Shown here: positions 37,516 through 39,837 of the stretch, in pieces
How the letters are laid out: each line of letters begins with the position of its first letter
Numbering within the stretch: position 1 is the stretch's first letter
Source: the human T2T-CHM13v2.0 reference genome, Homo sapiens
NCBI RefSeq assembly: GCF_009914755.1
Contig: NC_060926.1
Reading direction: 5' to 3' (one strand)
Length of the DNA: 64,000 bases
Made by a program: the position numbers and the translations under genes
The notes under the pieces: model-generated
Database searches by the model: none
What the model saw: the letters and a program-made list of their open reading frames with translations, nothing else
Told to the model about the DNA's origin: nothing

Positions 37516-37779
37516 TTAAACTTTTTAATTATGAAAATGACACACATGGAAAAGTGCATAAAACATATATTTATAATTCACCCAATAATAGTAAAAGTCA
37601 TGCCCAACCACACCGAGGTGAAGACCTAGAGCCTGCCAAAGCCAAGGTTCTCTCCCTGACCCCTGCCTCAACCCCCATGGTGCCCACCATCTTGACTTTT
37701 ACCATAGTCAATTCCTTGCTGTGTTTCATTTGTTCACCTGCATATGCATCCCTACACAACGTACGGTATTCATAACATC

Positions 37780-38977
37780 TGTAAATTTTTTTTTCTTTTT
37801 TTTTTTCTCTGAGATGGAGTCTCCCTTTGTCGCCCAGGCTGGAGTACAGTGGCACGATCTCGGCTCACTACTGCCTCTGCCTCCTGGGTTCAAATGATTC
37901 TCCTGCCTCAGCTTCCCGAGTAGCTGGGACTACAGGCATGCACCAACATGCCCGGCTAATTTTTGTATTTTTAGTAGAGATGGGGTTTCACCATATTGGC
38001 CAGGATGATCTCGATCTCTTGACCTCATGATCCACCCACCTCGGCCTCCCAAAGTGCTGGGATTACAGGCGTGAGCTGCCGAATAAAATCCTAAGTCCCC
38101 TGCCAACTGAATGTACCCCCCTCTTGGGCAAAAGGACCCCAGAAAAACCTTAAAAACTGAGTTCTCAGCCATGATAGGATGGGAGGTCAGACATGCCTCA
38201 TTATCCCCCCTCCCTTTTACTTGTAGTATACACACAACAACTGACCAGCATTCGTGTTAAAATAGAGGCCGTATGACTGACAGAACAGGCTCTGTGGCAA
38301 TAAGATGCCACATTATAAACAGGACCCGAGGCCATGTCAGGCGAGGGTTAAGTCCCACACCCCTAAGCTTTAAAGAATAAACTATTTTCTAACTGTCATA
38401 AGGTTCTTCTTTTTCTCTAGCAGCAAAACAAGCACTGGCCATGAGATAAACAATGTTAAAGCAATTTGTAGCTCACCATTAGACAATGACTAACTAAGCC
38501 CGCTGTTTCATCAGCCATAACTACAGCTTTGATTGGACAAGAAATGGATTTCAATAACTTTCTCCAGATAAGAAAACCAACCACCACAGACTGGTTCTGG
38601 CCAGTTTACAGAGGCTGCCTTCAGGTCCTGAAAAGATCTTTTCATGTATAGGGCTTAATTTTAATGGATTTAAATGTTAAGTCTCCTCCCCAGGGTGGAT
38701 ATAGGTCATAGGTTACATACATGTGTGTTCAATACGCATGCATCAGGACCACCTTCATGAATATTCATAGCTCCTCCTGTAAGCTGTTGAATATGTATGT
38801 TCAGCCAAACTGTTCAGCACAAAGCTCAGCCCCTCCTCTTTGAAAATGCCTGTCTGTGGGCTTTGCCAGAGGCTACACTTCCCAGCCTGAGGAATGGCCA
38901 CCTTGTAGACTCTAACCCTTATAAGAAATAAAGTCTCCTCTCAACATTTATAAATTTGTGATTTTTTTTAGTTAACA
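37780..38977 (+). mobile_element. MER4D-like ERV1 solo LTR with an antisense Alu (37786-38080) just after its first bases
   Basis: tgtaaa...aataaaatcctaagtcccc...aaataaagtctc...gttaaca; 4-bp TSD catc/catt. Confidence 0.85.
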
Positions 38978-39362
38978 CATTTAAACTCTATTGAATATGA
39001 AGTATACAATCATCTTACATACAGATAATGAAAAATGATGCAGTTAAATGAAAAAACACTTTCTTGATTAGAATTTTCATTTTATGCTTATTAAAAAGAA
39101 AATTTATGATGTGTGCGCACATCGATTTTATTATATATTATGCTCGTGCATGCATTAAAAAAGAAAAATTAAGCAAAATATTCTGGTTCAAGTAGTCTGA
39201 AAATCTCTTCCTAATTGGGATCCACATTCTCCACATCACTTTTGACCCAGATTGTCTGTGTCTGCATTTCCCTTGCTGTATCATTCTCTATGCAAAAAGA
39301 GTGCTTGCCATTGAGAATTTCTTACCATAGTGCAGCTCCACTCTTTCTGGGCTTTCTTACAG

Positions 39363-39580
39363 ACCGCTGGCAGTCTTAGCATCATAATTACCACGAAAGT
39401 CAAGACCATTTGACTTCATTAGCCAATAGGTAACATCATCTTCAAACTTCCAGAGCCTCATCGGAGCTCATATAGAGGAGCTGCTGGTGCCACTGCTGAG
39501 TGTCTGGCTGAGTCCAGCTGCACAGCTGGCCTTTTTGGCAGTTTGAGCCGCTTAAGAATTTTTAATTTCTTTTCGTGTAT
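39363..39580 (-). pseudogene. ECRG4: Decayed fragment of ECRG4 (augurin/C2orf40) coding sequence
   Basis: 39558-39454 reads [35 protein letters not shown], then after a 4-nt insertion 39449-39420 reads [10 protein letters not shown]. Recalled ECRG4 is [45 protein letters not shown] (19/35 then 9/10 identical by eye). Frameshifted, no signal peptide or start. Confidence 0.85.
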
Positions 39581-39837
39581 GTGTGAGGCATCAGCCTGAG
39601 TTAGTAAGTTACAAGTGAAGTGATAAGTATTCTTTTTAATAAGCATAAAATGAAAATTTTAATCAAGAAAGTGTCAGTTTCATTGCATCATTTTTCCTTA
39701 TTGGTACATAAGATAATGGCACACTTCACAATCAATAAGGTTTTAAATGTTAAGGATACAGTATGTTTTTTAGGGACGCATATGCAGTATTTAGGAGTGC
39801 ACTGTGCTACAGATCGTGAAGGTGAAGATAGCAGGTT

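What the first reader, a model, noticed from the sequence alone, without database searches (positions are those of the whole stretch)
37762..39763. Pack-TIR-like element: a DNA transposon carrying an apparently spliced ECRG4 (augurin) fragment
Seen: removing the MER4D LTR and Alu (37780-38981) restores an ~800-bp unit with ~140-bp inverted repeats and TA at both ends. Inside, 39580-39363 (minus) reads [70 protein letters not shown]. Known (recalled): ECRG4 has [65 protein letters not shown], and TA TSDs mark Tc/mariner elements. Three Arg positions appear as TGC, TGG and CAG, consistent with CpG decay. I recall an intron between DEA and KFEDD; here only 4 nt separate them, implying an mRNA-derived template. 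No poly(A) or TSD flanks the fragment, so ordinary L1 retroposition is not evident. 39100-39365 resembles a decayed Kanga/Tc2 transposase 3' end. Inference: an ancient mammalian DNA transposon captured cDNA of a peptide-hormone gene and may have spread it. I cannot tell whether this is already in a repeat consensus.
Basis: partly seen in the sequence, partly recalled or inferred. Interest (0 to 1): 0.9.

Follow-up and report, generated by a model that had tools for sequence, protein, structure and literature searches.

The report
Decayed ECRG4 retrocopy beside duplicated repeat
This is a very old, broken, intron-less copy of part of the ECRG4 (augurin) gene lying next to an ancient repeat, one end of which was later copied in reverse on the other side, so it only looks like a transposon carrying a gene piece.

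Summary
The sequence facts hold. A spliced ECRG4 (augurin) fragment lies on the minus strand at about 39363-39602. It meets the Pfam Augurin threshold, is about 70% identical in DNA to exons 2, 3 and 4, and lacks both introns. It sits between inverted repeats that are 84% alike (137 of 163).

The transposon-cargo reading is not supported.
- The left arm and the 250 nt after it (37764-37779 and 38982 to about 39360) are one copy of an old dispersed repeat, called R here. R gave at least 142 candidate copies.
- That stretch is neither transposase nor ECRG4 3'UTR.
- The right arm (39623-39787) repeats R's first ~140 nt in reverse, plus the TA and 24 nt of non-repeat flank.
- In 17 of 17 other R loci the end occurs only once.
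- The two arms share 26 changes against the family majority.
- No other genomic place carries the arms or an ECRG4-like piece. None of 12 R loci holds ECRG4 sequence.

Best reading: an ancient ECRG4 retrocopy, truncated at both ends, with a locus-specific inverted duplication beside it. It is not a mobile Pack-type element. Interest is low.

The parts
37738..37763 (.). 24 nt of non-repeat flank plus TA, at the outer end of the left arm
   Evidence: Included in the inverted repeat. 20 of 24 identical to the mirror flank at 39764-39787. The other 77 flank pairs among family loci average 7.2 of 24, maximum 12.
37764..37779 (+). Terminus of old repeat R, first 16 nt, cut off from the rest by a later insertion
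   Evidence: Family homology starts here. The same terminus is reached in 7 of 10 further members.
37780..38981 (.). Later composite insertion: an Alu on the minus strand (about 37785-38081) and a dispersed repeat of at least 850 nt (about 38082-38950).
   Evidence: Rfam SRP/Alu match at 37809-37956(-). Query 38090-38950 gave 1804 candidate copies, 40 scored, at 70-78% identity. The arm alignment is colinear once this block is removed. Boundaries are good to about 10 nt.
38982..39107 (+). Repeat R, the part that has a mirror copy (rest of the left arm)
39108..39360 (+). Repeat R, interior, continuous with the left arm.
   Evidence: Family members align across 39107/39108, up to 39324 by BLAST and to about 39360 in the MAFFT alignment. 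No Pfam transposase match. No similarity to the ECRG4 coding tail or 3'UTR.
39363..39449 (-). ECRG4 exon 4 coding part (KFEDD... to ...TASG), with small indels, cut off about 60 nt before the gene's stop codon
   Evidence: 52 of 74 to the gene.
39450..39453 (-). Four extra bases at the exon 3/exon 4 junction
39454..39571 (-). ECRG4 exon 3, lacking about its first 39 nt
   Evidence: 76 of 109 to the gene. Pfam Augurin 28.4 bits..
39572..39602 (-). ECRG4 exon 2, its 3' 30 nt
   Evidence: 17 of 19 core match; 0 of 500 shuffles reach the score. 19 nt at 89.5%, E=0.016.
39603..39622 (.). 20 nt unassigned (start of exon 2, or filler)
   Evidence: No significant match.
39623..39787 (-). Right arm: an inverted copy of R's first ~140 nt, plus TA (39762-39763) and the 24-nt flank (39764-39787)
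   Evidence: 137 of 163 to the left arm. Matches family members in the opposite orientation. Shares 26 derived states with the left arm.

Best explanation
A decayed fragment of spliced ECRG4 cDNA (exon 2, exon 3 without its first ~39 nt, and about 90 nt of exon 4) lies on the minus strand. On one side it abuts the broken interior of an ancient dispersed repeat (R). On the other it abuts a locus-specific inverted duplicate of R's outer end together with 24 nt of the DNA that flanks R.

Likely order of events:
1. R inserted long ago.
2. A reverse-transcribed ECRG4 mRNA was integrated in the eutherian lineage. Whether the L1 machinery did this or repair of a break captured the cDNA cannot be told.
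3. Later, about 165 nt (flank, TA and R's end) was copied in reverse to the other side of the fragment. Template switching during replication or repair is the likely cause, and it probably removed part of the retrocopy.
4. A dispersed repeat and an Alu then landed in the left arm.

Shown here: the cDNA origin, R's membership of a repeat family, the duplication of the flank, and the uniqueness of the structure. Inferred: the order, the timing and the molecular mechanism of steps 2 and 3. Nothing indicates that the unit ever moved or has a function.
For: ECRG4 origin and splicing:
- Pfam Augurin above its cut-off.
- A genome-wide PF15187 search finds only the two ECRG4 exons and this place: 3 matches from 4 candidates.
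- DNA identity is about 70% to exons 3 and 4, and exon 2 is present.
- One alignment spans the exon 3/4 junction.

Source lineage:
- The fragment shares eutherian-only residues (L in YWL, N in NG, and N one step from D in GDY).
- Identity to 20 named orthologues is flat: 17-21 of 34-35 and 7-14 of 15-22. This gives no sign of a foreign source.

The arms are not a pair of transposon ends:
- A family member on contig C23 (X chromosome by inference) has 38 relatives at 67-89% identity, among them window 39067-39169. A second member gave 142 candidates.
- Family homology is continuous over 37764-37779 and 38982 to about 39360.
- The mirrored flanks are 20 of 24 alike, against a mean of 7.2 elsewhere.
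- In 113 usable columns the arms share 26 derived states. 11 are specific to the left arm and 8 to the right.
- 17 of 17 family loci carry the terminal 170 nt only once within about 3 kb.
- The arms have no third copy. The same search found 1804 candidates at about 75% identity for the control repeat.

Relative ages:
- The window's R copy differs from the family majority at 34% of sites (205 of 312 identical).
- The fragment differs at 19.6% of sites (22 of 112 non-CpG first and second codon positions).
- Each arm differs at 7-10%.
- If the arms were as old as the fragment, about 35% pairwise mismatch would be expected. 16% is observed; 0.3% of simulations reach so low a value.
Against: - No poly(A), no target duplication and no 3' end were found. 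The hallmarks of an L1-made retrocopy are therefore missing, and the route of integration is not shown.
- The layout (repeat end, sub-terminal sequence, gene fragment, inverted repeat end) is what a Pack-type element would look like. The TA next to R's terminus fits a Tc1/mariner-like family.
- The age gap between fragment and arms could also come from gene conversion between the arms. Then steps 2 and 3 could be one event.
- The genome search cannot see copies much below about 70% identity. The window's own R copy found no relatives when used as the query. Very old sibling copies cannot therefore be excluded.
- Orthologous loci in other mammals could not be examined.
Confidence: 0.65

Rival explanations
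1. A true Pack-TIR-like element. A non-autonomous derivative of transposon family R picked up ECRG4 cDNA as filler during gap repair. It then transposed to this TA site, which happened to be the centre of a 50-nt palindrome.
For: The layout fits. The left end, 250 nt of sub-terminal R sequence, the gene fragment and the inverted end follow one another. TA lies next to both inverted termini, and next to the terminus in roughly half of the family copies inspected. The cargo looks older than the arm divergence, as expected if capture came before the last jump.
Against: - It needs a 24-nt-armed palindromic target to explain flanks that are 20 of 24 alike.
- The family shows no inverted partner of its end in 17 of 17 loci, nor in the all-against-all comparison of 12 loci.
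- Arms only 16% apart imply siblings about 80% identical. None was found, although the search finds 75% relatives of a control repeat.
- No other Augurin-like place exists in the genome.
- ECRG4 exons hit 0 of 12 family loci.
- No transposase domain was found in 72 ORFs from 6 members.
Confidence: 0.05
2. One complex repair event. A double-strand break inside R was mended by capturing a piece of ECRG4 cDNA and, in the same event, by fold-back or template-switch copying of the nearby R end in reverse. The arms were then kept alike by gene conversion until the insertion at 37780-38981 split the left arm.
For: - Both junctions are sharp. The fragment lacks poly(A), target duplication and both of its ends. 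This fits capture at a break better than target-primed insertion.
- The inner 52 nt of the arms are 94% alike, and the two outer arm segments are 76-77% alike. This could be a conversion tract.
- Per-arm divergence of 7-10% is of the same order as the divergence among copies of the repeat inserted in the left arm (70-78% pairwise).
Against: Taken at face value, the arms have diverged less than half as much as the fragment. Gene conversion is assumed, not shown. With arms of only ~165 nt, efficient conversion is uncertain (general knowledge).
Confidence: 0.25
3. The two arms are two independent insertions of family R in opposite orientation, and the ECRG4 piece merely lies between them.
For: Both arms match family members. 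R is a multi-copy family.
Against: The arms are 84% alike, whereas family pairs are mostly 60-75%, with a maximum of 79.5%. They share 26 derived states. They also share 20 of 24 flank bases outside the family terminus.
Confidence: 0.02

Closest known systems
Processed pseudogene (retrocopy of a spliced mRNA, usually made by LINE-1)
   Same: It derives from ECRG4, and exons 2, 3 and 4 are joined without the ~2 kb and 3.7 kb introns. It is decayed, with frameshifts and stops.
   Different: There is no poly(A) tail, no target-site duplication and no 3'UTR. It is truncated at both ends. It is not in the RefSeq gene table supplied for this window.
Pack-MULE / Pack-TYPE transposons of plants (non-autonomous TIR elements carrying gene fragments)
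   Same: A gene fragment lies between inverted arms, one of which is the end of a repeat family, with sub-terminal family sequence retained.
   Different: The arms include non-family flank. The family has no matching second end. No target duplication is seen, the structure is single-copy, and there is no sign of mobilisation. The literature searches done here gave no listed title or abstract start on a mammalian case (9 papers) or on ECRG4 with transposons (8 papers). Only the search listings were seen.
Endonuclease-independent LINE-1 insertion, or cDNA capture at double-strand breaks (recalled from the literature, not read here)
   Same: Such insertions lack target duplications and often lack poly(A), and they are truncated. 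That matches this fragment.
   Different: Nothing here tests the mechanism. The missing ends could equally be later deletions.
Template-switch inverted duplications arising in replication or repair (recalled)
   Same: A short nearby stretch is copied in reverse close by, including ordinary flanking DNA.
   Different: At 165 nt the copy is long for such events, and it lies 515 nt from its source. Not testable here.

Membership tests
Pack-type TIR transposon carrying a gene fragment | The two arms are the two natural ends of one transposon family | tested here: not met
   17 of 17 family loci have the terminal 170 nt once only. No self-inverted match was found in 12 loci. The arms share 26 derived states.
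Pack-type TIR transposon carrying a gene fragment | A target-site duplication directly outside the arms | tested here: not met
   The inverted repeat continues 24 nt past the TA. At the true ends the flanks read TTGTTCAC and TATTTAGG, with no duplication.
Pack-type TIR transposon carrying a gene fragment | More than one copy, or other evidence of movement after capture | tested here: not met
   PF15187 is found only at the gene and here. The arms are found only here. ECRG4 exons hit 0 of 12 family loci. The search is blind below about 70% identity.
Pack-type TIR transposon carrying a gene fragment | A host gene fragment between the arms | tested here: met
Processed pseudogene | Similarity to a parent gene with introns precisely absent | tested here: met
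   Exons 2/3 and 3/4 are adjacent. There are four extra bases at one junction and a gap of about 39 nt at the other.
Processed pseudogene | A 3' poly(A) tract and flanking target-site duplication | tested here: not met
   Neither is present. ECRG4 similarity ends inside exon 4 at about 39363.
Augurin / ECRG4 (Pfam PF15187) | A score above the curated cut-off | tested here: met
   28.4 bits against 27 for ORF 39442-39561(-). 27.7 bits in the genome scan. The match covers a fragment only, profile positions 31-65 of 114.
   TA precedes the terminus in roughly half of the copies inspected. No second end was found. No transposase domain was found in 72 ORFs of 6 members or in 12 window ORFs. The family name cannot be tested without Dfam or Repbase.

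The most novel reading that the evidence does not exclude
A germ-line double-strand break inside an old repeat was mended in one step, by copying a spliced host mRNA (ECRG4) and by fold-back copying of the neighbouring repeat end. This would place two inverted transposon ends around a gene fragment. It would be a fossil of how a Pack-type element could be born in a mammal, although this one never moved.
Probability: 0.12. Interest if true: 0.45.

Novelty: new member of a known kind. Interest (0 to 1): 0.15.

Why it matters
It removes an apparent case of gene capture by a mammalian DNA transposon, which would have been remarkable. What remains is an unannotated, very old ECRG4 retrocopy fragment in an intron of LINC02572. 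It is also a worked example of how a local inverted duplication of a repeat end can mimic terminal inverted repeats. The practical lesson is to check whether an inverted repeat runs past the repeat family's own terminus into the flank.

Tried and rejected
- ECRG4 3'UTR as the source of 39108-39365. Local and global alignments to the gene's coding tail and 3'UTR score no better than shuffles. An AATAAA at 39132-39127(-) is then a chance feature of AT-rich repeat sequence.
- A transposase remnant. There are no Pfam hits.
- A foreign (horizontally transferred) source of the fragment. It is equally similar to all tetrapod augurins and carries eutherian-specific residues.
- The outer 20-mer of the arms as a family terminus. 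It has 162 genomic matches against 6 for the control. Six of the ten loci fetched end in an A-rich tail and look like LINE-1 3' ends; that recognition is recalled, not tested. They share nothing more with the arms. This is treated as coincidence.
- The left flank 37590-37779 as a repeat. It matched only itself.
- Continuation of R on either side, in 36000-37780 and 39780-42500. Only Alu matches were found.
- A strict local-alignment test of the ECRG4 part against 8 family continuations was negative, but its positive control was weak: only 1 of 3 control alignments was clearly above shuffles. It carries little weight; one search is the better test.
- Rfam gave only Alu-related matches.

Full report
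**What is in the sequence.** The inverted repeat is real. The repeat finder gives three collinear arm pairs. With the block 37780-38981 taken out, a single alignment joins 37738-37779 plus 38982-39107 to 39787-39623, with 137 of 163 positions identical.

**The ECRG4 fragment.**
- ORF 39442-39561(-) matches Pfam Augurin (PF15187) at E=2e-6 and 28.4 bits, against a cut-off of 27. The second piece (KFEDD...) gave no Pfam match on its own.
- The window's own assembly could be searched. PF15187 is found at only three places out of four candidates: two exons of ECRG4 at C2:106.5 Mb and this place. Protein searches with the two ORFs agree. Apart from the ORF itself and the ECRG4 exon, the other five matches had E of 0.87 or more.
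- In DNA the fragment is 76 of 109 identical to exon 3 and 52 of 74 to the last coding exon.
- In the gene those two exons are 3.7 kb apart, with an intron of phase 0. In the window they are separated by four bases, and one BLAST alignment of 182 columns (68.7%, E=1e-22) crosses the junction.
- Exon 2 is also present. The core match is 17 of 19, it was the second-best hit in 30 kb of the gene locus, and 0 of 500 shuffles reach its score.
- About 39 nt at the start of exon 3 are missing between two similar GAGAA words.
- The template was therefore spliced at two junctions.

**Where the ECRG4 similarity stops.** After about 39363 there is no detectable similarity to the rest of the coding sequence or to the 3'UTR, by local or global alignment against shuffles. 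The fragment lacks exon 1, the last ~60 nt of coding sequence, the 3'UTR, a poly(A) tail and a target duplication.

**Source of the fragment.** I collected 108 augurins and compared 20 named ones, aligning 17 of them.
- Identity is flat across tetrapods: 17-21 of 34-35 residues in one piece and 7-14 of 15-22 in the other.
- The fragment carries three states seen only in eutherians: L in YWL, N in NG, and N one transition away from D in GDY.
- It reads QPD where eutherians read RPE. Either that is an older state, or it is CpG decay plus one further change.
- This points to the lineage's own gene after the split from marsupials, not to a foreign source.

**The arms.**
- The first genome searches found no other copy of the arms or the spacer. 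A control repeat from the same region gave 1804 candidates at 70-78% identity.
- A weak match on contig C23 proved to be the key. Used as a query, it has 38 relatives at 67-89% identity, one of which is window 39067-39169. A second member gave 142 candidates, of which 40 were scored and all were significant. This is an old dispersed repeat family, called R here.
- Pairwise BLAST and a multiple alignment show that R covers the window continuously from 37764 across the later insertion to about 39360.
- No transposase domain was found in 12 window ORFs or in 72 ORFs from six family members.
- The family has a fixed terminus, reached in 7 of 10 further members. TA precedes it in roughly half of the copies I inspected.

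**Why the arms are not a pair of transposon ends.**
- The inverted repeat continues 24 nt outside R's terminus. These flanks are 20 of 24 alike, whereas the 77 other flank pairs average 7.2 of 24, with a maximum of 12.
- In 113 alignment columns with a clear family majority, the arms share 26 derived states. 11 are private to the left arm and 8 to the right. The right arm was therefore copied from an already decayed left end.
- In 17 of 17 other family loci the terminal 170 nt occurs once only within about 3 kb. No locus shows a self-inverted match.
- No target duplication is seen at 37738/39787.
- ECRG4 exons find nothing in 12 of 12 family loci at E of 1 or below. No family ORF matches Augurin.
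- R does not resume within 2.5 kb on either side.

**Relative ages.**
- The window's R copy is 65.7% identical to the family majority (205 of 312).
- The ECRG4 fragment differs from the gene at 22 of 112 non-CpG first and second codon positions, and at 56 of 186 positions overall.
- Each arm has 7-10% private change.
- With composition-matched rates, arms as old as the fragment should differ at about 35% of positions. They differ at 16%, and 0.3% of simulations give so few differences.
- Taken at face value the order is R, then the cDNA, then the inverted duplication, then the insertion into the left arm.
- Gene conversion between the arms would blur this and would allow the cDNA insertion and the duplication to be one event. 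The inner 52 nt are 94% alike, against 76-77% for the outer arm segments.

**Verdict.** This is an old, unannotated retrocopy fragment of ECRG4, truncated at both ends. It lies beside an ancient repeat whose end, with its flank, was duplicated in reverse at this locus only. It sits in an intron of LINC02572 on the same strand (hub table) and has no open frame.

**Limits.**
- The repeat family could not be named, because Dfam and Repbase are not on hand.
- Other mammals' genomes could not be searched.
- The genome search misses relatives below about 70% identity.
- Literature searches for ECRG4 with transposon (8 papers) or pseudogene (21 papers, 12 listed), and for Pack-TYPE elements with mammal (9 papers), showed nothing relevant in their listings. 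No paper was opened.

Noticed in passing
window 37764-37779 plus 38982-39360; loci L041-L066: An ancient dispersed repeat family with at least 142 candidate copies and 67-79% pairwise identity among most copies scored. It has a fixed terminus (roughly C-N-R-TATTTCAT...AATCTAAGATGC), often preceded by TA. No coding domain was recognised in its first ~600 nt. Its name is unknown here.
   Followed up: partly
window 37738-37757 and 39768-39787: The outermost 20 nt of both arms resemble a very common genomic word: 162 matches with up to 2 mismatches, against 6 for the reversed control. Most of the loci fetched look like LINE-1 3' ends followed by A-rich tails (recognition recalled). No further similarity to the arms was found.
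   Followed up: yes
window 39450-39453 and 39563-39583 (minus strand): There are four extra bases at the exon 3/4 junction. The human intron starts GTAGGT, so a donor 4 nt downstream would add 4 nt (speculative). About 39 nt (13 codons) are missing at the exon 2/3 junction, between two GAGAA words. Either could be an alternative splice form of the source mRNA or a later indel.
   Followed up: partly
window 39490-39500 (minus strand): The fragment reads T-Q-P-D where all eutherian augurins compared read T/S-R-P-E. Marsupials, platypus and sauropsids read Q-P-D. This is either a retained pre-eutherian state or CpG decay.
   Followed up: partly
window 37772-37788, 38941-38957 and 38972-38988: Three similar short words (TAACAT..T.AAA) lie at the edges of the Alu-plus-repeat insertion. 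This suggests target duplications from two nested insertions. The exact boundaries were not resolved.
   Followed up: no
L055 (G000:C22:18362481-18362586): A 106-nt stretch is 96% identical to L043:1995-2100, beside an R copy on chromosome 16. It is a young duplicate or another repeat, unrelated to the finding.
   Followed up: no
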